From Podarcis vaucheri (Eukaryota): DNA of 64,000 nt. Shown here piece after piece: positions 16,742 to 54,200 of this stretch; position 1 is the stretch's first letter; every line of letters begins with the position of its first letter. The notes under the pieces are model-generated. The model was not told where the DNA came from and made no database searches. It was given only the letters and a program-made list of their open reading frames with translations. The translations under genes were made by a program, and so were the position numbers. Where the stretch lies: assembly GCA_965113315.1 (NCBI GenBank), contig OZ220371.1; one strand, 5' to 3'.

Positions 16742-16888
16742 CCGTCTACGACAGAAAGGAAGACCTTGCGCAATGATGCTGATGCTAAATATCTTCATCA
16801 CAGTTTGGTGGGGCAATGGCGTTTTTGTACTTGGAAGATCAACAGGAACCAGGCCATGATTTACGGGTGATTTTCCTGGTTTTGACAT
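16742..16888 (-). CDS. FBXW7: FBXW7 gamma-isoform-specific first coding exon, 49 codons (partial CDS)
   Basis: MSKPGKSPVNHGLVPVDLPSTKTPLPHQTVMKIFSISIIAQGLPFCRRR closely matches the human FBXW7-gamma N-terminus as I recall it. Phase-0 donor CGG|GTAAGT after 16742. Confidence 0.95.
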
Positions 16889-17099
16889 TGTACAGTTTTC
16901 ACATGGTCCAGAATTGTTTGTAACAAAAGGGCATTACTAAGAAGCTCAACAAAATTGGTATCTGGTGTAACTGAGGGTTTTAAAGCAAAGGATTCTGCTT
17001 CCCAAGGCCTGTTTTCCTTTGTCTCAATCTTCTCAATCTCTCCTACCAAGTGTCTTGACCTGTCTGCTGCTTAGTGAAGTGCAAGCTATCCTAGTATAG

Positions 17100-17160
17100 A
17101 GCGGAATTATAAACGACTATGCCGACAGACTGTCCCTGCCAATCAAAGAGCTATTGGCCC
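17100..17160 (-). promoter_or_regulatory. Candidate FBXW7-gamma core promoter
   Basis: TATA-like TTTATAAT on the minus strand (17113-17106). CCAAT boxes at 17139-17143 and 17153-17157 in opposite orientations. About 220 bp upstream of the gamma ATG. Confidence 0.55.
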
Positions 17161-17891
17161 ACCCATGCAGTATCACTAACACATACTATCAAAATAGGTG
17201 ACATTTAAAAAAAATTCAATTGCTTAGAACTAAAATAGCAAAGCTTCAAACTAGAATCAAATGTATAAGTTATGGTTTTGACTGAATTTTTGTTAAGTGG
17301 GAGACGAAGCCCTAATACCTTCAGATCAAACAACCTGAAACAAAATACAACATAACATTTTCTAATTATGTAAGAAGAAATTAAACCTCTTCATGTTTGG
17401 GATTATATATAATAATGCAGTACCGTATTAATATGAAGCGTCTTGCCTATGTTCAGAATGACCAAGATACGGTCAGGACTATGTCAACTTTGACCCAATC
17501 TCTTGCTTACAGAACAATGACAGCAGCCACAATGTGAATCGATTTAGTGGATTTGCCAACCCCAGAGTCACTATGAGGGCCAACTCCTTTTTTATTAATT
17601 TGCTCATTGTTGTTCTTTGATGAATATCGGTTTTTCTTATTTTTGTCTGAGATGCTCCCCATGAGTTGATGAGTGTAAGGTGTAACTAGTGGCTGTGTCT
17701 GACTGGAAGGAGAGGGCTTTATCTCCTCAGAAGAAAAGGTGTCTGCATTTCTCCAGGTGAGAGATAGGCAAAAAGGAGTAGCTTTTCCATGTTGTATTTT
17801 GATGCCTTGTATATGATGTGCTTCTGTAGTTCTCAGTTGTTTTACCTATGTACGTAGTTTAGAGCTATTTACTGTTGCCTAATCATGCTGC

Positions 17892-18232
17892 GCTGTGGGT
17901 TAAACCACAGAGCCTAGGACTTGCCGATCAGAAGGTCGGAGGTTCGAATCCCCGCGACAGCGTGAGCTCCCGTTGCTCATTCCTTGCTTCTGCCAACCTA
18001 GCTGTTCGAAAGCACGTCAAAGTGCAAGTAGATAAATAGGTACCACTCCAGCGGGAAGGTAAATGGCATTTCCGTGCGCTGCTCTGGTTCGCCAGAAGCG
18101 GCTTAGTCATGCTGGCAACATGACCCGGAAGCTGTACACCGGTTCCCTCGGCCAATAAAGCGAGATAAGCGCTGCAACCCCAGAGTCGGTCACGACTGGA
18201 CCTAATGGTCAGGGGTCCCCTTTACCCTTTTT
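17892..18232 (+). mobile_element. Sauria SINE, near full length
   Basis: tRNA-like head with B box GGTTCGAATCC, Sauria core, TSD TAATCAT(G/A)CTGC. Confidence 0.9.
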
Positions 18233-19828
18233 TAATCATACTGCTTAAAATGTGGAATACGTTTTGAATGTGTATTTCATATATTCATTCTTTTTTGTAA
18301 AAGCACAGATCTCTCTTGAAACAGGAAGCAGTATGTAAAACAATTAACTAAATAAATAAACTGTTCGTGGTATTTACCTAGATTAGGAGGACAAGCTATA
18401 TAGCACAAGATAGTCAGCATTTTTTTTTCAGGCTATGATGCTAATAGCCATGATTGCTAACCTCATAGAAACAAACAAACAGAAGAGTTGCAGTCATTTG
18501 GGGTGGGAAAGGATAAACAAGTAGGGACACTGCAAATCACAGGAACTAAGAAAACAGGAAGTCGTGGACAAAGTTTGGGGAGATGCAGGAATAAATGCCA
18601 GGGAAAGTATCAGAGGAATGAAGACTGGTGGTCCATTTTCCAGTATCCTATACATTTTGGGCCTGAGCTGGGCTGCCAGCATCATGCTGTTCTCCTTTAA
18701 AGGAAGCATAGAAGAAATATTCTCAGAGCCTAGGAACAATAAGGATCCTTGTGTGAATTTCCAATGGTGCAGAGGGCAATCTTAGTTATGATTACTAATA
18801 AAGTTGGATCATCGTTCACTCAGATTTTTAAAAAGGATATTGAGTTTAAAGGATATTGAGTACAAAGCAACAGCTATTCCCAGTCATGATGTGTTACCCA
18901 TACATTACATTACTCAAAATGTATGTAGAGTGTATAAAAACAAGAAGTGGTGATGGACTGAGAACTGTTACTGAAATTGCTGGACCATTATTGAAATTGG
19001 AATTAACTTGCGGATAGTTGCTGAAATTTTAATTCAGTTATTACGAAAATGGAATTTTCACTGAGCATGTAGTAAAAAGTTGTTTACAATGAAGAGCAGT
19101 ATTACTGAACATATCACTTGCAAGCTGGAGACAGTGAAACTTAACAGAACTCTTATCTTGTGAGCATCTGCCCTCAAATGGATAAGAGTGATCACTACAA
19201 CATTTAGCATTATTTATACTGCTTCTTATGAGATACTTACTATAATACACAAAGCAATCTGGAAGTTAGTTGTTTTTCATAAGTAAGATTTTTTAAAAAG
19301 TTTACCATTAAATATTAACTTAAATCAGGGTGGCAAATTGTTCTTTTAAATGTGATTTGCAACCCACTGCACTCCCTAATTAATAAACACTTCAGATTTT
19401 GCAAAACCTGACTGCTTTACTGTTCCTGACAGACATGGTGGCCTAAGGGCTACACTACACATATTTACGTAGAGACCAGAGTGCAGAAGTACATTAAGTG
19501 TAACAATAACACACCCCACATGAAGTAATTGTTGGTAAGAGATAAGTGAGTAGATTTAAAACAGGTATTCCACAGGATGAGAATAATAATACATCACAAA
19601 GCTGTGTGTCCCAGTTTTCACTGGAGATTTCATGATATTGGTCTGCTTATTATAACTCACCTGCTTCCCTGGATGACCTCAGGAAGGGTTGTGCTACTGT
19701 TATATTTCATAAGGCATAGAAATGAAGAATGATAGGGAAAGGGAAAGGCTCCAAAATCATCTAAGCAGTAACATGCACAACTTTGTTAACTGTACAAAGC
19801 GCAAATTTCATATGCAGAGAACAGAGTA

Positions 19829-20081
19829 CAGTGGTACCTCTGTTTTCGGACCTCTCCCATTGCCAGATGTTTCGGTTTTTGAACGCCAAAAAACTGGAAG
19901 TAAATGCTTCCATTTCCGAATGCGCCTTGGAAGCTGAATGGCTTCCGTTGCGTGTATCTGTTGTTTTTCACAATTTTCTCTATTGAACTGGCAGGTCGCC
20001 CTTTGCGCCTCAGTTTTCAAACGTTTTGGAAGTCGAGCAGTCTTCTGGAACAGATTACATTAGAAAACCAAGGTTCCACTG
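19829..20081. mobile_element. Tc1/mariner MITE, family B
   Basis: TA|CAGTGGTACCTC...AAGGTTCCACTG|TA; interior differs from family A. Confidence 0.8.
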
Positions 20082-21770
20082 TATATGTTTTAAAAAATGC
20101 ATTAGCTAGACATTTGTTGAGTATGTTTTGAACAGGGAAGTATTGTTGTTTTAAATCCTAACTTCTGCTTCACTTGCCCTACCTGCTTTCAAATTAACAT
20201 TTCACGAACATTTGTTTTCCTCCTCCATTAAATATTTCAGAAAGTATTTCAAATATGTAACACAAACCCCACTGATCGTCTTGCATTCTGCAAACATTCT
20301 AGAAATGTCAGTCCAATCCTTATCAGCTATAACATGATTTATCTCATGCTTAAGTATAACTCTTTGGTCGTCTCAGGATAGTACCAGCTGTTAAAGAAGT
20401 ACTACAGCTGCTCTTCAAGAATTCAGTGGCAGATTGCATCTTTGTACCCCAGTACACCTTTCAAACAAAATATACCATAAAACAGCCAAAAAAATGTTCT
20501 TATCATTCTCCAAATGCAGGGAAACGAAAAGATAGGTATGTATACTGCACTTTAATAAGCAACAAGCTTAACTGTCTGAGCTACCACCTTGTAATCTCAT
20601 TTAAGATGTTGACAACTGAGTTTCAAAGAATGTGACATGCCTAAACCCCTCCCTACTTATGTATCTATAGCTCAGCTATGATAAGCCCAAATTCAAGTAC
20701 AACGCTCTATCCATTTTCACATTTTGCCTATTAAAATACTGAATTGAAAAACTTTGTTCACCACTAAGTAAGCCGTGTAAGCATGTACTGGAAAGGTCAT
20801 CAGCACACAGAAATATTCAGTTTAACTAAATTGTAGTACCGTATTTTAAATCTTACTACTCTACATAGAAAATCTTAAGAGGAGGAGGAGAACCACCTGC
20901 AGACTGTTCATTTTGTGAAAAGAACAGTGGGTTGTATCCGACAGGTTAGGAAACCCTCCAGAAAAGATTTGGCAGAAAAGCAGGAGGCTGCAGAGAGGCA
21001 GGGGAAGTCCTGTTGCACAAGTGGAACTCACACAATATTGGACTCAACCCAGTATTTTTAGCAGAAACTTACTTGCCTTTTCATAACTGCATCAATGGAT
21101 TTTAGGTGTGCTACAAATTTAAAATATTTTTAAAAGTTTAAGCACTTAATAACAGAAGCTTCTAATGTTCTTTGATAACATATCTGACTTACTAGAAATA
21201 TTCCATATAATACATATAAGCAAGCAAATGGAAAAACACACACTAACCAATTGTTACATGGCATTCACGCGGTAGTGGCAGTTTAAGCTGCATAATCCTG
21301 TTCAGCTGGCAAATAGCATGCTGAAAAAGAGTGCGGCGTTATTAATAATAGCTCAAGATATGCGAAGTAAAGAATGTTTGAGCTGCCAAAAAAAGGCAGG
21401 TAGTCTGAGGCAGACTGAAATTCTTGATCTGTCTTGTTTGTTCTTATGTGCTTCAGTGATCTAAATAGGTATGGGAAGCATTCTTATGTAAATGGAATTA
21501 ATTATATATACATTAAGATTAAATAGTTCATGCCGACTTTGGCGATGTGACTCAAAGAATGGCACCACTAGTTTAAACACCCTCTAGTTGACCCAATTGT
21601 ATCGTGCTGCCCTCAAGACTAACTGCTGTCAAACTGGTACCTTACTCACTAGACTCCTGTTACCCACTGCTGAGTCCTAATCTATTTGTAAACACTTGTT
21701 CAGAAGACACTTTGGAAATTCTCTGTAAGATTAAACCTTAAATCTTCCAGGGGCAGGAACAACCATACTA

Positions 21771-21978
21771 CAGTGGTACCTCTCATTGCGAACGCAACCC
21801 GTAGCGGTGTGTCTGAGCATGCGCGGATTGCGATTTGCTGCTTCTGTGCATGGCGTCATTTTGCGCGTCTGCGCATGCGCCAAAACCCGGAAGTAACCCT
21901 TTCCGGTACTTCCAGGTCGCGGCGGGACGTAACCTGAAAGAACGTAACATGAAGCGGACGTAACATGAGGTATGACTG
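21771..21978. mobile_element. Tc1/mariner MITE, family C (CpG-rich)
   Basis: TA|CAGTGGTACCTC...GAGGTATGACTG|TA with subterminal CGTAAC(C/A)TGA repeats. Confidence 0.8.
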
Positions 21979-22009
21979 TACTGAAATTCAGAACGGTATG
22001 TATGCGTCT

Positions 22010-22160
22010 GAATGCCAGCTGCTAGGAATCACAAACAGAGAGAGAGTTCTGTTGAACTTAGGTCCGGCTTGCAGACTTTCCATAGGCTGACCACTGTGAG
22101 AACAGGATGATGGATTAGATTGGTATCTGGCTTGATCCAGAAGGGCTCTTCTTATGTTTA
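22010..22160 (+). mobile_element. CR1-type 3' UTR fragment
   Basis: Ends ...tgatccagaagggctcttcttatgtt; a reverse-oriented relative lies near 48817-48930. Confidence 0.6.
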
Positions 22161-24152
22161 TATTAACTACAAGATGTTCCTGTTTGGTCTTCGCTTCTCC
22201 TGTAGCGAGGAGAGCAAGGAACAATTCCTTCCAAAATTTGCACTGAACTAGTCCCTAGTGTCTGCCCTTTTAAAAACTGCTGACTAGCAGCTTAAAAAAG
22301 CTTTGGACCCAGTGGTCTGGTTCAGAAAATGATTCAAGATTTTAAGCAACACAAGTTATGAAACTGGGAATAAGAAGTTTCCTTGCCTTTCTCCCATCAC
22401 ACACGGACTTTGGCACAGAGATCCTGGGTTGTAATAAGCTATGTCCAAACTGAGAAACTCTGACTTAACAACAGACAACAAACAAGGAAAGAAGTCAGAA
22501 TGTGATTAATCATCTGAACCAAGCCACTGCCACACAGCTTAATAATCAAAATATGTGGGAAAATAGAAGGTTGAAGGGCAACTGCAAATACAAGTCATGT
22601 CTGCTTTGTCACAGCCTACAGGAAAATTAAGCAAGTGTCAGATCTGGTCTATAGGCAGTGGGCTAAAGTGAGTTAGAAACTGGGAGTCATAATCAAGAGA
22701 AATCTAGGAGGCAGGACTGCCACAGCAAGTCAGGACCAAAGAGCAAGAGCAGAAACAAAATGTGCATGCACACATGAGAATCCAGCTGCTCAAACAAGTT
22801 TCAATGAAAAGCACGTCCTCCTTATATACTCCATGCTCAGGAGGGATCAATGAGCAGCCGCTGTGGTGGAGGCAGGATTTGGAAGATTCCTCCCTAAGAG
22901 GCTGCAGCTATGTGGCTCACCACATGGGGGAGTGGTTAGCCATTCCTGGCAATAAAGGATATTAGACGCTTATGAAAAATGTAGTACTATATAGAATTTG
23001 CTGGGACAGAACAAAGGAGGTAGTAAGTAGTTAAATACAGTAGAGGCCACTGTAAGTAGGATAGTGCAGAAAGCGGCAACTCTTTCTCCAATGCATGAAG
23101 CAAGCAAAGCTACACTAAAGGGAAGGGATAAACCCTCTGTCAAATATGGCAGAAGTCAGTATGATCTTGCTGCTCCTTGCAGTAGATAGTCTGATCCATC
23201 CAGAGCTGAGGTGTAAGCTGGCCAGCTCCATCTCCCTTGTGGCTGAAACTATGAAGGAAGCTGCTGCCCAGGCCCGTACTGTGAAACTGAGTAAGGAAAC
23301 CCGTCACATAGGGATAATGACAAGTGGTAGTGGACTGGTGACTCAACAGTTATTGCTGATGAATTATTTTTCAGTTATTATTAGTTCCATAGAACTGCAT
23401 TGTTTATGTAATTGTTAGAATCTGCTTTCCTAGCGTGCTCGTAATCTGTTTGATATGGTTATATTTGTTGTTTGCTTGCTTTTAAAAAAAGACACTCTGT
23501 AACTGTTGTGATCCACTTTCAGCTCCGCTTTGGTACTGAAAAAGCAGCATACAAAAGCAGCAACTGCTACAGGATAAAGCAAGAATGGATTTGAATTAAA
23601 GATGAAGGATTTTAATTATTTAGCAACAGAGCAAATTGCAGGCATTGTTATAGACCTCACACTTACCCCTACAGTGGTTTCGAGTTTATAGCATATACAG
23701 TACCATAGGGTTGTGCATTTTCACTATGGATCTCTTCTTGCCTAATGTACACCAATGTTGCCGTGCCCAAAAGCAATATCTGAATTAAAAGGTTCTCCAG
23801 TCATCAGTGTAAGCTTTTAAATTCATGAGATTTCTTTTCCAGACCATGTATGCCATCATCTCACTCATCCACTCCCCTTACCATAGGTTCTCTTAGATTT
23901 TAATATAACTTTTATTAATTTTCAAAAAAAGGTTGTAATAGATTCTGCAAATATAATGTTATCAAACAGGATATTGTGGCAATATACACAGTCCATATAC
24001 AGTTATAGATCACTGTCGAACAGACAGACATATAATAATACCAAAATAAACCACAGTGAAACTAGAACTATTTATGGCACAGACATAATTGTTAAACAAA
24101 ACAAGGTTACAAAACATGAACCTTGTTACATCAAGGGAAGGCAATTAAAGTA

Positions 24153-24563
24153 CCGTATTTTTCGCATCATAGGGTGCACTGGACCATAGGGCGCACCCAG
24201 TTTTTAGGGGGGGAAATCAAGAAAAAAATTATTTCCCCCCCCCAGCCCCAAAGAGCAGCGTACAGGCTGCATACAACCTCTCCCTGCCAGAGGGGTTGCG
24301 CGCAGCTATGGAAGAAGGCAAGGCAGCGAGTGGGATGGACCCCGCTCGCTGTTTTGGCTTCCCCTTTAGCCCCGTGCAGCCTCTCCTTGCCGGGAGACGC
24401 TGCGCAGGGCTAAAGAAGCCATAGCTCCGTGCAGCCTCTCCCTGCCGGAGGGGTTGCGCGCGGCGATGGCACAAGCCGCCTGCATTCGCTCCATAGGACG
24501 CACACACATTTCCCCTCAATTTTTGGAGGGGAAAAACTGCGTCCAATAGAGTGAAAAATACGG
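24153..24563 (-). mobile_element. Non-autonomous TcMar (Tc2/pogo-like) element, short copy, 411 bp
   Basis: TIRs CCGTATTTTTCGC / GTGAAAAATACGG with TA flanks. Confidence 0.88.
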
Positions 24564-25482
24564 TATTCAAATGCCCCAAGTCACTATACCAGCCATACTT
24601 GTTCATAGGTTGAGAAGGGTCCTTGGCCATGTTCCTCCTTGCTTAGAAATGAAATAAAGTCAGAGCAAATCATTATCAACCAACACTCATGAGAATCTTC
24701 CACATTAGGCAGGTAAATATATACAGGTAATTTTATTGCATTTTTCCTGCAGCCACAGGCACTAGCAAAACATTCATCTTTAATCTCTCAGTGTTTACCT
24801 TGGACACAGCCTCTGAAACATACTAAGAAGTGGCGAACGTTAACATGTATGACCCAGGCAATGAATTTCAAAAAATCTACCCCATATTCATGTTGAGGGG
24901 GGTAAGAGATTAGTTCAGCAAAGGAGTGCAAAGCTAATTTAAGCTACGAAAGCAAAATGTGAAGTAAGAGAGTCCCACTGAATGGCATGAGGCTCAGCAG
25001 TTTAAAACTATCAAGGAATACAACTGAGAATATCTATGCAAATTTCCCTCAGTCCAGTCCTCTCAAGTGACTGTGCATGCTTATCACTCTTAGCAGTGGT
25101 GTTTTTATTTTACAATCATCAAGAAAGCCAAGCCAACTAGAGTTCATTCTGGAGCCAACTCCAGTAGCTGGCAAATCCCAGCCCTCCCTTTCCACTTTGG
25201 TTGCCATGTAAAACCTTTCTGGCAGTAGGAGATGTTTGACAGTGGAACTCTTGGAAAGTGGTGGGCTCTCCTTCTTTGGAAGTTTTTAAGCAGAGGTTGG
25301 ATGGCAACCTGTCATGTACCGTATTTTTCGCACTATAGGACGCACTTTTTCCCCTCCAAAAATGAAGGGGAAATGTGTGTGCGTCCTATGGTGCGAATGC
25401 AGGCTTTCGCTGAAGCCTGGAGAGCGAGAGGGGTCGGTGCGCACCGACCCCTCTCGCTCTCCAGGCTTCAGGAGAGCCCCAC

Positions 25483-25905
25483 CGCCAGCCCCACAAGCTC
25501 GGGGGACAGCGGGAGAGGCGCAGCGCGCCCTTCCCGCTGTCCCCCGACTTGGTTAGAAGGCTGGCGGGGGGAGAAGCCTGCTCCTCCCCGTCGCCAGCCC
25601 CGCAAACTCGGGGGACAGCGGGAGAGGCGCAGCGCGCCTTTGCCGCTGTCCCCCGACTTGTCTAGAAGGCTGGCGGGGCGAGAAGCCTGCTCCTCCCCGT
25701 CGCCAGCCCCGCAAACTCGGGGGACAGCAGCAGGGGCGCAACGCGCCTTTGCCACTGTCCCCCGACTTGGCTAGAAGGCTGGCGGGGGGAGAAGCCTGCT
25801 CCTCCCCGTCGCCAGCCCCGCAAACTCGGGAGACAGCGGCAGGGGCGCAGCGCGCCCTTCCCGCTGTCCCCCGACTTGGTTAGAAGGCTGGCGGGGGGGG
25901 AGCCT
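25483..25905. repeat. GC-rich minisatellite, 109-bp period, about 4 copies
   Basis: Units start at 25483, 25592, 25701 and 25810; each holds the hairpin GGGGGACAGCGG...CCGCTGTCCCCC. Confidence 0.95.
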
Positions 25906-26420
25906 GGTTTTGCGGGAGGCGGGGGAATCCCCCCGCCTCCCAGGAAAGCCAGGAGAAGCCGTGCAGCCCTTTTAAAAGGCGTGCGGCTTCTGCCAGTTTT
26001 GCGGGAGGTGGGGGAATCCCCCCGCCTCCCAGGAAAGCCAGGAGAAGCCGTGCAGCCCTTTTAAAAGGCGCGTGGCTTCTGCCGGTTTTGCGGGAGGCGG
26101 GGGAATCCCCCCGCCTCCCAGGAAAGCCAGGAGAAGCCGTGCAGCCCTTTTAAAAGGCGCGCGGCTTCTGCCGGTTTTGCAGGAGGTGGGGGAATCCCCC
26201 CGCCTCCCAGGAAAGCCAGGAGAAGCCGTGCAGCCCTTTTAAAAGGCGTGCGGCTTCTGCCGGTTTTGCGGGAGGTGGGGGAATTCCCCCACCTCCCAGG
26301 AAAGCCAGGAGAAGCCGCGATCTCTTTAAAGGGTTTGCACGGCTTCTGCGGGCTTTTAGGAGAGGTGAGGGAATCCCCTCACCTCCCAGTAAAGCCAGGA
26401 AAGCCCTGTGCAGCCCCTCC
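25906..26420. repeat. GC-rich minisatellite, 89-bp period, 5 copies plus a partial one
   Basis: Units start at 25906, 25995, 26084, 26173, 26262 and 26351; each has two hairpins (GGGAGGCGGGGG-AAT-CCCCCCGCCTCCC and GAAGCCG...TTTTAAAA...CGGCTTC). Confidence 0.95.
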
Positions 26421-28395
26421 GCCAAGGAGAGGCTGCACGGGGCTAAAGGGGAAGCCAAAACAGCGAGCGGGATCCATCCCGCTCGCTGCCTTGGCTTGAT
26501 CCATAGCTGCACGCAACCCCTCCGGCAGGGAGAGGTTGTGTGCAGCCTGTACGCTGCTCTTTGGGTCTGCGGGGGGGGAAAAGATTTTTTTTTCCTTGAA
26601 TTCCCCCCCTAAAAACTGGGTGCGCCCTATGGTCCGGTGCGCCCTATGGTGCGAAAAATAAGGTATGTCTCAGTTAAGTTCCTGCATTGCAGGACGTTGG
26701 ACTAGATGACCCTTGGGGTTCCTTCCAACTCGACAATTCTATATTTCTATAACATAGGCTAAGCATTTGTGTAGATCCTTTGTGGGTGCTACTTGCCAGC
26801 GAAACAGAAAACTATTAGATGAATGCATAAAGAAATTTATAGATAACAAAACCAATGGAGACCTGATTATAACTGTGCGGCATGGCTGCCAAAAACCACC
26901 TCAGGGTAATGGAGACAGACAAACTACAGCAGCGACTTCTGTACCTAGGTACAAACAGCGTTCTAGGGAACAGCTATTCTGAAATGTTGATGCCTGCCAT
27001 ATTCAAACTAGGGTTTTGGAAGCAATACTACTCTGTTTACTTTAGAACAAGGCCCAATACACCTACTTAGAATAGCCACAAGTTAGGCTGTTATACATAA
27101 GGTATCTACCAAATACCTAAACAGTTTTGAGAAAGCAAAGATCAAGTCTGAGAATCACTGAGGTTATACATCTTAGTGTGTGTCTCTGCAGTAGACCAAT
27201 CAGGATGATGATTCATCAGTGGGAGAGTTGTTAGTAAGAGACGCTTCAGTCTCTGGTGGGAGAAAAGCCCAATCTCCAGAAGTCCCAGTCCAATTGTTAG
27301 ATCTATAGCCCTCACTGATTTATGGCTCTGGTCAGCTACTAACTGGCAAAAGGTAGTGCAAGGTGGAAGGTGGGTTTGTGTCTCTCCATCCTTACCAGTG
27401 TCCAGAAAGATTTTCCTGCATTTTCCTCAATACGACAGTAGATGAGAAGAGGCAGGCAGAGGCAGCATCCTAGACCCCACTGAATAGTTGCAGAGGACTA
27501 CAAAAGCATGTACATTCTCACGTTGCATGGGGAAGTCAGCTAGGTGGGAAGCAGCACACAGCTGTTGCGTATACTACTTTGACCTGCCATGTGTCCCTGC
27601 CATTGTCAGGACACATTTCAACATTTACCAAGTGCAGCAGTGGCAGCAGGTCAAAAGAAGCGTAAGGGAGAATCATATGCCACTTCTAATGTAGCCACTA
27701 GAAAAAATTAAGTATATGCTCTTATGTACACGAGTGTTCTGTTTCCACTCATAGAAAGGGCAGGAAGGTATTTTCTGGTCTGGGTTGATATTTGTACAAC
27801 CAGCCATAGGGCAAAAAGCAGCACTTGTGGTTACAACCTAGAGAAAAGAATGGTTTCCTACTAAAAGCATCAGATGCATGTGTGAATTGTAGTAGTACAA
27901 ATTTTCTTTGAATGTGTGAAAATTACTTTATGGTGGTCCAAAATCCAGTGACCAATTGAATGCAATAAGGATAAACCTGCACATCATACATCCTTCTTGA
28001 AGAAAACTTATTGGACAAGTACGGATCTCAATATTCAATGCACTCACAGATTTTTCTACCTGACTTCTTACTCTGCTTACACTTATGAGGAATGGAATCC
28101 ACTAGAAAACTGTTGTCAGTTTTCAGCATATAAGTAAGACAGAAATATTGGAACTTGTATGATGGCAAACATTTCTTAGCCCAGAAAGCTGACAGGCATG
28201 CTGTAGTTAAAAAAGCAAAGAACTTTTTTGATTACCTATTCATGTTTATCAGCACCTTGCCTTCTGGTACATATTTTAAGGAGTTTCTTGTAAAAAAAAT
28301 GCTAATACATACTATTTTGGCAAACATGTACAAAACATTATACACAACTAACAAATTCCATTTCACTTGCTTTGAAGGGGAAAAAATAGCAAAGG

Positions 28396-28727
28396 CTCAA
28401 CCAGAGCCAGGGCTTTTTCGGCTGTGGCTCCAATCTGGTGGAACGCTCTGTCACAAGAGACTAGGGCCCTGCGGGACTTGACATCTTTCCGCAGGGCCTG
28501 CAAGACAGAGCTGTTCCACCAGGCCTTTGGCCAGGGCACAGCCTGACTCCCTCCTTTGGCAATCTTCACAGAACTTTAGCCTAATAGTTGCCATCAATTT
28601 GATTTGAATTAATTTTATAATGAAATGATTTTAGAATGTTGTACTATTTTATTGTTGTTAGCCGCCCTGAGCCCGGCTTCAGCTGGGGAGGGTGGGATAT
28701 AAATAAAATTTATTTATTATTATTATT
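28396..28727 (+). mobile_element. L2-clade LINE 3' end
   Basis: Encodes RARAFSAVAPIWWNALSQETRALRDLTSFRRACKTELFHQAF, then a 3' UTR with a gccgccctgag...gggatataaataaa terminus and (TTA)n. Confidence 0.8.
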
Positions 28728-28992
28728 AAGTGCTTCTTAGAGCAACTGTAAGAGCAGAGCACAGAAGGATCCCAATGCCATTGAACTTAGTGCTTAGTGG
28801 TAGAGTAGTATAATTTTTTTCTTTCACAATAAATATGAAGAATACTTGAACACTGGTATAAAGCCTTCATAGTAAATCAGTAGCTTCATAGGAGTGGATT
28901 ATTCTAGTAATATATATTAATTGCTTAATTCTTATTAAAAAAAAAATCTCCATGCCTCAGTGCTTTGCTTAAAATTACTTTAAATTACTCAC

Positions 28993-29499
28993 CTTTGACT
29001 TTATGTAGAATGGAGATGACTGCTGATGTATTGCTAAGTCCATGATACTATTTGAGTTTGTGACAGTATTACTATTAGTGCGTTCATCATCTCTGCTGCT
29101 TTCATCAGATTGATCAAAATCATCACTGTCCTGGTCCATTTCTTCCTCTTCCTCCATCTCCTCCTCCTCTTGTTCACCAGCATGTTCATCTTCCTCCTCC
29201 TCTTCTTGGTTACCAGAATATTCTTCATCCACTGCAATAAATCTGTTGTTGTTTTCTTCTAACTGTTCTTGCTGGGACTCATTTCTGTGGCAAAGTCCAG
29301 GCTCCCCACCACCTATTTCCCCATTCCTTGCCGCGTGCGCTTCCTCTTGTTGCCGTAATTGTTGCTGCTGCTGCTGTTGCTCCTCCTCCACCACTCGATT
29401 CATCTGCTCTTCATCGACTTGGCTTGAGGAAGCATTACCTCGAACAGACCCACCAGTTCGTCGTCTCTTACTGCCGACAGACAGCAGTTCTTGATTCAT
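28993..29499 (-). CDS. FBXW7: FBXW7 alpha-isoform-specific coding exon, 169 codons (partial CDS)
   Basis: Translation MNQELLSVGSKRRRTGGSVRGNASSSQVDEEQMNRVVEEEQQQQQQQLRQQEE...SSPFYIKSK matches the FBXW7-alpha N-terminus as I recall it (KRRR NLS, SSSQ, acidic tract). ATG at 29499-29497; phase-0 donor AAG|GTGAGT after 28993. Confidence 0.97.
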
Positions 29500-29568
29500 T
29501 TCCAAAAGCCAGCTTGCTACTTCTTGGACCTTTGCTAGACTATCTGAAGATGCAAATGTTTTCACATT
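29500..29568 (-). other. FBXW7: 69-nt 5' UTR part of the alpha exon, following the splice acceptor
   Basis: Minus strand reads tctctacctctgctttttcttcttctcAG|AATGTGAAAAC: a strong polypyrimidine tract with AG at 29570-29569. Confidence 0.9.
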
Positions 29569-51285: not shown

Positions 51286-54200
51286 ATCTAAGCCTTTCAT
51301 TTCTAAGGCAGCCACCAATTCTGCCAGACAACGCAACACCAAAACTTGTAGTGAGTTCAGAATGCCCTGAAACAGGACAATGAACAGCTTCAATAAACAC
51401 ACAGAGAAACAAACCTCAGTGTATGCATTCAACCATTTGCATGCCTCAAGGGCCTTTCTGGATCACATCCTTGAAGTCAATTTATATCTTGATCACTAGT
51501 AGAAGTAATTTACATAATAAACAGTGCCACTGACATGTGTTGATCTGATCCTGCTGAGAGCCTGCAGCTTTAACCAAACTTCAAGGGGTGTGGGGAGAAA
51601 ACAAACTACCAGGAAAATGGCTCTTCTTGAGACTGGAGCATATGAATGCCAACTACCAAGCAATCTGAACAGCGCAGCCCTTGTACTGGGGAACAACAGG
51701 CCACATCCTGCAAAGTATTTGTCCATGGTCAGGTCATCCCCTATGCACTGTGTGGCTTGGATCCTAATAACCGCTCACCTAGTTTCACCCACTGAGAAGG
51801 TTTGGTCATTTTTTTAAAAAAAACATCAGGTTGCCATGCCACATGACAATCCTTTGCAATATAGCATAGGGGTTTGCTACTCAAAGGAAAGCAGAAAGAC
51901 ATTCCATTGGGCTGATCCACACCTCTGAGTGTACCTAAAGCAGCTCTTTAGATACTAGTTTTGATCTGTAAGCACAGAAGAATGGAGCTGTGTTTCTGGT
52001 GCTCCGAGAGATATCTGGATCAGGCTGACTTTTCAGATCTACTAAATTTGATATATGTATGCATAGGGAAGTTAGTTTTACTATGTATCAACTTGTAGAA
52101 TGGGAAGAGAGTGCAAATTTACAAAAGTAAAACCATATATATGGTTTGCATATATCAGTCATGTTCTTCAATTACTTCAGAATTGCACATTATATTGAAA
52201 CATCACAGGTCACAAAACTGGAAAATACTACTGTAATTTGAGCAGAAACATACTTATTTTATAAATACAGGAGCACTGGTGTGGGAAGAAGTTAAGCAGT
52301 TCTTATTCAAACGAGAAACTGTTTCTGAACATCCAGCACTTTTAGAGCAACTCTAAGCTGCAGTCACAAACATCCATTAGAGTGTTCCACAATTCAGAGC
52401 AAGCAAGTGGTTGTCAGTGCAGCCAGTAAATCACCTGATCCTATTACAAAATCAATTACTGCAGCACATTTCTATTGCTACACAACCTGATGATGGCAAA
52501 ATGATATTGGATAGCTGCTGCAAGGTCAAAAAAAACTAAAAACATTTTAAAATGTGTCTTATTTTAGGTCCACATTGCATCTATTTTAAAGGAAATATTT
52601 TTAATAAAGCTGTATAGTTACCTTCTTTGGCTGATTGGGACATTCGATGGATAGTCTCTGCAACTGGTCTGATGTATGGCTGCAAGATAGGAGATCGGAA
52701 CAGCAGGTCGAACGGCCCAGCCTCTTCATTAAAGAAGAAATAATGCTGCAGCCACAGCCACACATTGACTTGCTCATCAGATGAGTTTATTCCTTAAGAA
52801 ATCAGTACTGGTACTGGCCCACACACAATCAAAATTGGCCGACCGCCTCATTCTGCAGCTCCCTGGCAAAAATTAATACTGATAAAAATAAAACAATGGT
52901 GTTTTTTTCCGAAGCTAATGCTAGTAGTCACTGTCTTTATTGCCAAGCAAAGCTCGCAATCTTAAAGTGCCTCTTTCCAGCTACACTTTTGCAAGACAAG
53001 CTGCTTTGATGCTCTCCACTGTTTTGCAAGAAAGCCATGAACTTAAAGTAACAGACACTGCACACTGACTAGAGTTTGTTTCTCTGTAGCACTTCAGGTC
53101 TGCTTTGATAGCCTCTATCCAACCTGTTCCCACTTTGAACACGCAGTCTTCCAACAGCCAACAGAAAATAGCCACACCCCTCTGTGTTCACATGATCACT
53201 ATTCAAGATCCGCTCAATATCTGAAAAAGTACTGTTGCTGCATTGCTGAGAGTAACAACAGTGTAGAGATTACTGGCTGGAATCTAATTTGCCAGTCAGA
53301 GCTCCCGACCCTTCAAGACTCTAACGTTCAGGGTACCTGCCAGTTCCACTTAGATTAATGTATTTTCTTTACTGCCAAACTTTGCCATTTTCCCTATGTT
53401 AAATATACACCCCACTTCAGCCTAACAAACCTAAGAGCAAAGTGCAGAAAGCTGTCTTATGAAAATACAACTCTGGAGAAAAGGCTAACACCATTACAAA
53501 CTTATACATACCAACCCAACAACTAACAGAGCGGGGAACAAATTTCAGCTAAAAAAAGAGCCAAAGCAATGGAAAACATAACAGCCAAAGGGTTTTAGTA
53601 AAGGAAACATGGAATTAACTTATTGGATATCTACCTCAGAGGGGGAAAGTTTGCAAATTGATTCAGACAAGTGGGGGTTATGGGGGGGGAGGAACTAAAT
53701 AAAATCATTTGCCTTGTCTTTGTCTCCCAAAGTTAATGTTTCAATATTTAAATAAAATAACTTTTCCTCAATAACACTGCTGTATTTCTAATTTCCCTTG
53801 TTTAATTGATCCTCAATGTAAAACAGAAAAAACCCCAAACAAATATAAAACATAAAAAGCTTGCAGATGCTTCCATAGCAGTACTAATTGCAAGTGCTAT
53901 ATATCAGTAGATGACATGCTGGTCTTTCAGCTATTAAAAGCAGTGCATTTATCTGTCTTACTGCAGCATGCACTAGAGTATTTGAAAAGAGAGAGAGAGC
54001 TCACGTTAACACAGATGCTCAACCTGATTACAGGATAATCTGCCTTGAAATAATTGTCACTTACATTGATAGAGCTATCAGCCGTTGCCTATAAAATCCC
54101 TTTTATCAAATGGTTAAGAAAAAGCAAGTGGCATGACAGCAGCTTAAGCGCACATATTCAAGCAAAACTTCTTGTTTTCGCTCTGCATCAAAAGCTATAT

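What the first reader, a model, noticed from the sequence alone, without database searches (positions are those of the whole stretch)
16895..29567. Identical start-stop element ATGTGAAAAC in the 5' UTRs of both alpha and gamma FBXW7 isoforms
Seen: the minus-strand 10-mer ATG-TGA-AAAC occurs at 29567-29558, from the second base of the alpha exon, with its stop 62 nt before the alpha ATG. It occurs again at 16904-16895 in a good context (GACC-ATG, A at -3), with its stop only 10 nt before the gamma ATG. Established: start-stop elements can hold ribosomes and repress downstream initiation, and FBXW7 is dosage-sensitive. Inference: two otherwise unrelated isoform leaders may share a translational control device. 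For alpha, the -2/-3 context would be set by whichever upstream exon is spliced on. For gamma, 10 nt is short for reinitiation, which would imply leaky scanning. Coincidence is possible.
Basis: partly seen in the sequence, partly recalled or inferred. Interest (0 to 1): 0.72.

Follow-up and report, generated by a model that had tools for sequence, protein, structure and literature searches.

The report
Hidden long FBXW7 isoform, chance motif
The two matching ten-letter motifs are real but their match is likely chance; the copy in the alpha leader lies in a stretch that reads as the same protein from fish to mammals and joins in frame to an upstream cysteine-rich exon, so FBXW7 likely has a longer, little-studied form, predicted to be lipid-anchored to membranes.

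Summary
The 10-mer is present at both places with the stated 62- and 10-nt gaps, and nowhere else in the window. A shared device is not supported. The gamma copy is the last codon and stop of an 11-codon uORF and a 9/10 copy of the gamma start 16 nt downstream; it is absent from the one outgroup leader seen and from the beta leader. The alpha copy is the +1 reading of N-V-K codons: the 69-nt 'UTR' is open in the alpha frame, its 23 residues are conserved from fish to mammals, and 37 of 53 fish-like records read Ala there, which allows no stop. A 52-codon exon at 52777-52622 (MSKSMCGCGC...) joins it in frame; automated models from sawfish to bats contain this ~780-aa isoform, but my literature searches found no study of it. 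In ordinary alpha transcripts the same bases probably do act as a start-stop; human circRNA arithmetic and a DENR prediction fit this. No RNA or ribosome data were obtained. The scan had not noted this on other DNA.

The parts
29558..29567 (-). Alpha copy of the 10-mer: ATG-TGA in the +1 frame, N-V-K-(T) codons in the alpha frame
29500..29568 (-). 23-codon in-frame extension in front of the alpha ATG (NVKTFASSDSLAKVQEVASWLLE); 5' UTR in canonical alpha transcripts, coding in the long isoform
   Evidence: human counterpart in PhyloSET by inference
28993..29568 (-). FBXW7 alpha exon, 576 nt, AG acceptor and GT donor, phase 0 at both ends; canonical ATG at 29499
52622..52777 (-). Coding part of an upstream cysteine-rich exon, 52 codons (Met at 52777, 52765, 52729), GT donor in phase 0 with the alpha exon
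52777..52851 (-). 24-codon uORF whose TGA overlaps the first ATG of the cysteine-rich exon (TGATG)
   Evidence: whether it lies in the transcript is not shown
16895..16904 (-). Gamma copy of the 10-mer, A at -3; 9/10 identical to the gamma start 16 nt downstream
16899..16934 (-). 11-codon uORF (MPFCYKQFWTM) whose last codon and stop are the gamma ATG-TGA; G at -3
16742..16888 (-). FBXW7 gamma first coding exon, 49 codons, GT donor

Best explanation
The two identical 10-mers are likely unrelated in origin: the alpha copy is the off-frame reading of three codons of a vertebrate-conserved N-terminal extension, which an upstream cysteine-rich exon likely splices onto to give a ~780-aa FBXW7 isoform predicted to be S-acylated, and the gamma copy is the end of an 11-codon uORF, likely a local near-duplicate of the gamma start. 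Shown: the frames, splice signals and phase, and the protein-level conservation. Inferred: with the cysteine-rich exon, ribosomes start at Met1 or Met5 (both weak contexts) and read N-V-K through to the alpha protein. Those that leak past meet the ATG-TGA with A at -3 (exon end AAG), stop at once and may reinitiate 62 nt later. With non-coding upstream exons the same bases would be an ordinary start-stop that damps alpha translation. In gamma, both upstream ATGs use one TGA 10 nt before the start, so gamma would be made mainly by leaky scanning.
For: The extension is stop-free and in frame. A search with it returned 153 proteins of 178 candidates, named FBXW7 in mammals, birds, reptiles, amphibians, sharks and bony fish. 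In 152 aligned records, residues -21 to -9 are mostly conserved with like-for-like changes (columns -8 to 0 were fixed by my search pattern). 37 of 53 fish-like records read N-A-K or H-A-K, where the +1 frame cannot be a stop, while the peptide is kept. The upstream exon is 100% identical to residues 1-52 of three lacertid X1 models and 81% to a teleost's; 83 of 83 candidates match it, sawfish included; 100 of 104 records read MCGCGC at Met5-Cys10. FBXW7 is in the 60-gene PhyloSET (25 codons, PhyloCSF 52, recalculated 59). Gamma: period-16 match of 12/16, met by 15 of 1,216 ATGs (6 of 1,216 for 9/10); no ATG-stop within 400 nt before the gamma-like start of L002; no 10-mer in the 9.5 kb that holds the beta leader, though two other ATG-stops lie upstream of beta.
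Against: The match is nominally rare (0.15% of ATG-stop pairs; 1-3% for any shared 10-mer), and the duplication idea still needs the gamma start to resemble the alpha codons by chance. N-V-K never varies in the 99 tetrapod-like records, and 14 gene calls start at the V position (probably GTG), so the start-stop or a GUG start may be under selection of its own. The long isoform rests on automated models: I have no junction read, footprint or peptide. The PhyloSET row has an empty Ribo-seq field, and FBXW7 is absent from the one supplement of a proteomic survey of translated 5' regions. Human 5' RACE of 115 clones from one cell line found only non-coding upstream exons. No human or mouse record with the full leader appeared; gibbon, camel and mole-rat models start at Met17. 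Protein records are open frames by construction, redundant, and show no synonymous sites. The gamma outgroup is one distant, fish-like sequence.
Confidence: 0.68

Rival explanations
1. One reading: both leaders carry a selected start-stop device, and the shared 10-mer reflects a common functional optimum or a bound factor.
For: Rare match; A at -3 for gamma; start-stops repress more when near the main AUG (PMC13338717); gene-level DENR prediction of 30.3% for human FBXW7.
Against: Gamma copy nested in a uORF; no copy at beta or in L002; alpha bases explained by codons, with the stop lost in most fish records; 13 other identical pairs in the window.
Confidence: 0.1
2. The extension is translated mainly from a non-AUG start, the GTG at 29565 (A at -3), in ordinary alpha transcripts, giving a 22-aa longer alpha protein; the ATG-TGA is a by-product or competes with it.
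For: PhyloSET lists FBXW7 as a candidate non-AUG extension; 14 records begin at this position.
Against: Those 14 are calls by programs that accept GTG, not measurements (inferred from their sources). 37 of 53 fish-like records have Ala there yet keep the peptide. An AUG-started upstream exon explains the coding signal.
Confidence: 0.1
3. The 69-nt segment and the upstream exon are conserved as RNA or DNA elements (splicing, leader structure, the stop of the circ-FBXW7 ORF), and the long isoform is an annotation artefact.
For: No protein evidence found; human RACE found no new ORF; circ-FBXW7 uses this region as IRES and, by arithmetic, this TGA as its stop; DNA upstream of the exon also seems conserved though it has stops in frame here.
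Against: Frame, phase and residues kept from sawfish to bats with like-for-like changes; positive PhyloCSF on the human segment.
Confidence: 0.12

Closest known systems
Human start-stop elements (Rendleman et al. 2026, PMC13338717) and 1-aa stuORFs needing DENR-MCTS1 (Schleich et al. 2017, PMC5473865)
   Same: AUG directly followed by a stop, upstream of the main AUG; 1,417 of 19,514 human genes have one.
   Different: The gamma copy is nested in a longer uORF; the alpha copy doubles as coding sequence. FBXW7 is not named in the 2026 main text; its supplement could not be read.
Automated FBXW7 'isoform X1' models, e.g. Zootoca vivipara XP_060134641.1, Podarcis muralis XP_028600718.2, Rhinolophus ferrumequinum XP_032990139.1
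   Same: Same 52-codon exon and 23-codon extension joined to the alpha protein.
   Different: Predictions only; no function assigned. A review passage lists three isoforms, alpha, beta and gamma (PMC6081812).
PhyloSET candidate extension of human FBXW7 (Fedorova et al. 2022, PMC9789052; addendum PMC10764858)
   Same: Coding signature on 25 codons before the annotated start; taken as the alpha start by inference from the row's tags.
   Different: Framed there as non-AUG initiation; here an AUG-bearing upstream exon explains it.
circ-FBXW7 / FBXW7-185aa (Yang et al. 2018, PMC6019044)
   Same: 620-nt circle minus 558 nt of ORF leaves 62 nt, the gap seen here, so its stop is likely this TGA if the ORF begins at the alpha ATG.
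   Different: A human circle; its small upstream exon was not found here with 3 mismatches.
N-terminal S-acylated cysteine clusters with a basic amphipathic helix, as in RGS4 or GAP-43 (recalled, no call)
   Same: Three Cys within residues 6-10, then a basic amphipathic stretch.
   Different: Acylation untested; no Pfam family or Atlas hit for the leader.

Membership tests
Start-stop element | AUG directly followed by a stop codon | tested here: met
   both copies
Start-stop element | Not nested in a longer upstream or main frame | tested here: not met
   gamma: last codon of an 11-codon uORF if the transcript starts above 16934; alpha: inside the CDS of the long isoform, free-standing only with non-coding upstream exons
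Start-stop element | Lies within the transcribed 5' leader | tested here: inconclusive
   alpha copy is exonic by its acceptor; the gamma start site is unmapped, no reads were laid
Start-stop element | Conserved above its flanks | tested here: inconclusive
   alpha: N-V-K in 99 of 99 tetrapod-like records, lost in 37 of 53 fish-like, codons not seen; gamma: absent in L002 only
Start-stop element | Ribosome retention and repression relieved by mutation | not testable with these tools
   needs Ribo-seq and reporters
DENR-MCTS1-dependent 1-aa stuORF | Strong context on a 1-aa uORF | tested here: inconclusive
   A at -3 for gamma and for alpha after the cysteine-rich exon; no context score computed; human gene-level prediction only
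Conserved alternative coding exon / N-terminal extension | Open frame, GT-AG signals and matching phase | tested here: met
Conserved alternative coding exon / N-terminal extension | Amino-acid conservation across distant species | tested here: met
Conserved alternative coding exon / N-terminal extension | Spliced transcript and protein detected | tested here: inconclusive
   only automated models; no reads or peptides obtained
S-acylated N-terminal membrane anchor | Cys cluster at the N-terminus next to a basic amphipathic helix | tested here: met
   MCGCGC in 100 of 104; hydrophobic moment 0.76-0.79 at residues 12-23; helix 9-20 in a low-confidence single-sequence model of turtle P0068, mean pLDDT 57
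S-acylated N-terminal membrane anchor | Acylation and membrane location | not testable with these tools
   bench test needed
Cys/Arg N-degron (ADO) substrate | Met-Cys start followed by a hydrophobic or basic residue | tested here: not met
   Met-Cys only if Met5 is used; next residue is Gly, not among those preferred (PMC12377780 passages)

The most novel reading that the evidence does not exclude
Jawed vertebrates make a fourth, S-acylated, membrane-tethered FBXW7 (about 780 aa) from a cysteine-rich exon, and the first bases of the alpha exon are a splice-controlled switch: codons of this isoform, or a start-stop that throttles nuclear FBXW7 alpha, depending on which exon is joined.
Probability: 0.33. 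Interest if true: 0.8.

Novelty: new variant of a known kind. Interest (0 to 1): 0.52.

Why it matters
FBXW7 is a dosage-sensitive tumour suppressor whose three known isoforms differ in location (PMC6081812). A conserved fourth N-terminus with a predicted lipid anchor would place this ligase at membranes and change how alpha 5' variants, alpha-exon knockouts and the PhyloCSF signal are read. Dual use of the alpha exon's first bases gives a testable reason why the seven human alpha leaders, with equal numbers of AUGs, translate differently (PMC3498124). The shared 10-mer itself probably matters little.

Tried and rejected
RNA evidence: no RNA holder on record was listed for the gamma stretch, and no reads were laid, so expression, the gamma start site and the exon junction remain open. 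DNA of orthologous leaders: one fish-like gamma locus among 599 pattern hits in metagenomes; none for the alpha extension in genome or viral contigs. The 17 gamma-type homologues start at the gamma Met and show nothing upstream. The human circle's small exon was not found by a short probe motif. Pfam and the Atlas gave nothing for the leader. The fold was low-confidence and was not searched further. Literature: FBXW7 + start-stop, + uORF (10), + non-AUG extension (32), + fourth isoform (46, 0 papers), + palmitoylation (47), + N-terminally extended (52), the peptide motif (56) and N-degron terms (69) listed no study of either element or of the long isoform, judged from listings; subscription journals are not covered. 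Supplements of PMC13338717 and PMC3498124, the per-transcript table of PMC5473865, 2 files of PMC9789052 and all figures were not seen and may bear on novelty. An oxygen-sensing N-degron role was considered and judged weak. Record P0120, named as lamprey, looks teleost-like and was not used for the age of the exon.

Full report
Observation. The window is part of FBXW7 on the minus strand of a lacertid-like lizard, judged by 98% identity of the alpha exon to Zootoca, Lacerta and Podarcis models. ATGTGAAAAC occurs exactly twice, at 29567-29558 and 16904-16895, against 0.31 expected. Gaps of 62 and 10 nt to the alpha ATG (29499) and gamma ATG (16888) are correct. Shared exon 2 and the beta exon lie 8-10 kb beyond the window start.

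Chance. With 20,000 shuffles of the gamma leader, some 10-mer is shared with the alpha segment in 0.9-2.7% of cases and this exact one in 0.025-0.065%; random window pairs give 0.5-2.8%. Of 9,180 pairs among 136 ATG-stop sites, 14 are identical over 10 letters. The match is therefore uncommon for a pair fixed beforehand, which counts against my reading, but it was picked afterwards from 64 kb that hold 13 more such pairs.

Gamma copy. It is in frame with an ATG at 16934 and closes an 11-codon uORF. The defining study removes nested cases from its core set (PMC13338717, sections 6 and 26). The copy matches the gamma start 16 nt downstream at 9 of 10 and 12 of 16 bases; 6 and 15 of 1,216 minus-strand ATGs have such a copy within 60 nt. 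A small local duplication is my inference. The only orthologous leader obtained, fish-like L002, has no ATG-stop within 400 nt of its start. The 500 nt before the beta ATG hold two ATG-stops with other tails, so ATG-stops are common near these exons. Amniote conservation and the gamma start site could not be tested.

Alpha copy. From the exon's first base the frame is open into the alpha ATG and reads NVKTFASSDSLAKVQEVASWLLE. A bank-vole model has the same 23 residues. A search returned 153 proteins of 178 candidates, 120 listed, across vertebrates; a second library agreed (26 hits). Of 166 held records that fit my pattern, all 99 tetrapod-like ones that show the three residues read N-V-K, 14 begin at the V position, and 37 of 53 fish-like ones read Ala in place of Val, which rules out a stop in the +1 frame. 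Records are redundant, not independent species. Human FBXW7 is in the PhyloSET of coding-like upstream regions (supplement rows; method passages), with no Ribo-seq entry; that the row is the alpha leader is my inference.

The upstream exon. Many models carry the same 51-52 residues before N-V-K. They map to 52777-52622, 23 kb upstream, end at a GT donor in phase 0 and join in frame. 83 of 83 candidates match, named from sawfish, teleosts, frogs, squamates, turtles, crocodilians, birds, monotremes and placentals. Met5-Cys10 reads MCGCGC in 100 of 104 records; Met1 is replaced in 3 of 35 records that show it, and one more is out of register. Residues 12-23 are basic and amphipathic. A cysteine cluster beside such a helix is typical of S-acylated membrane anchors (my knowledge); this is a prediction. 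No human or mouse record with the full leader appeared, and some mammalian models start at Met17.

Human links. circ-FBXW7 is 620 nt and its ORF 185 aa (PMC6019044 passages); 620 minus 558 is 62, so if the ORF starts at the alpha ATG its stop sits where this TGA does. At least one human FBXW7 transcript is predicted 30.3% DENR-dependent, near the 37% maximum, which by that paper's formula points to a 1-aa uORF in strong context; others score 0 (PMC5473865 passages and gene table). Seven human alpha leaders with equal numbers of start codons translate differently, and RACE found no new ORF (PMC3498124, parts 1-3 of 5). These fit a real start-stop in ordinary alpha transcripts.

Mechanism. Most likely the alpha exon's first bases serve twice: codons when the cysteine-rich exon is joined, a start-stop otherwise. 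After that exon the ATG has A at -3 and would catch ribosomes that leak past three weak starts. The gamma copy is a separate, probably lineage-limited uORF end. Frames and conservation are shown; splicing in this species, initiation, acylation and repression are inferred.

Novelty. Start-stops are common and known. The long isoform is in automated annotation and its human coding signal in one supplement, but the searches listed under Tried and rejected found no study of it; reviews name three isoforms (passages). The scan's notes held nothing on this gene. Verdict: observation confirmed, shared device unlikely, and a more interesting feature lies beside it.

Noticed in passing
window 52851-52777 (-): A 24-codon uORF ends in a TGA that overlaps Met1 of the cysteine-rich exon. 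30 of 35 homologous records have Leu just before Met1, which would fit a kept TGATG overlap.
   Followed up: partly
window 53193-53188 (-): Another ATG-TGA about 415 nt upstream of the cysteine-rich exon's first ATG.
   Followed up: no
proteins P0036, P0058, P0068, P0079, P0257: Several bird, seal, turtle, snake and bat models join the long leader to the alpha exon and end at about 245-280 aa, without F-box or WD40, like a linear counterpart of FBXW7-185aa.
   Followed up: no
L006, 285 and 135 nt before the beta ATG (G000:C28:40850334): Two ATG-stops upstream of the beta exon; the first also closes a 26-codon uORF, the same nested layout as gamma.
   Followed up: partly
window about 30070-30040 (-): By eye resembles the start of the human circ-FBXW7 small exon given by the paper's probe, but with more than 3 mismatches and no clear acceptor.
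   Followed up: partly
window 25483-26416: GC-rich tandem arrays with periods 109 (3.9 copies) and 89 (5.7 copies) in the alpha-gamma intron.
   Followed up: no
G000:C18:350052-350201 (L005): A 49%-identical match to an FBXW7 shared exon elsewhere in the genome; possible paralogue or remnant.
   Followed up: no
protein P0059 (Marmota): The model uses only the 3' part of the cysteine-rich exon, which suggests an internal acceptor; a CAG sits at the matching place near 52682 here.
   Followed up: no
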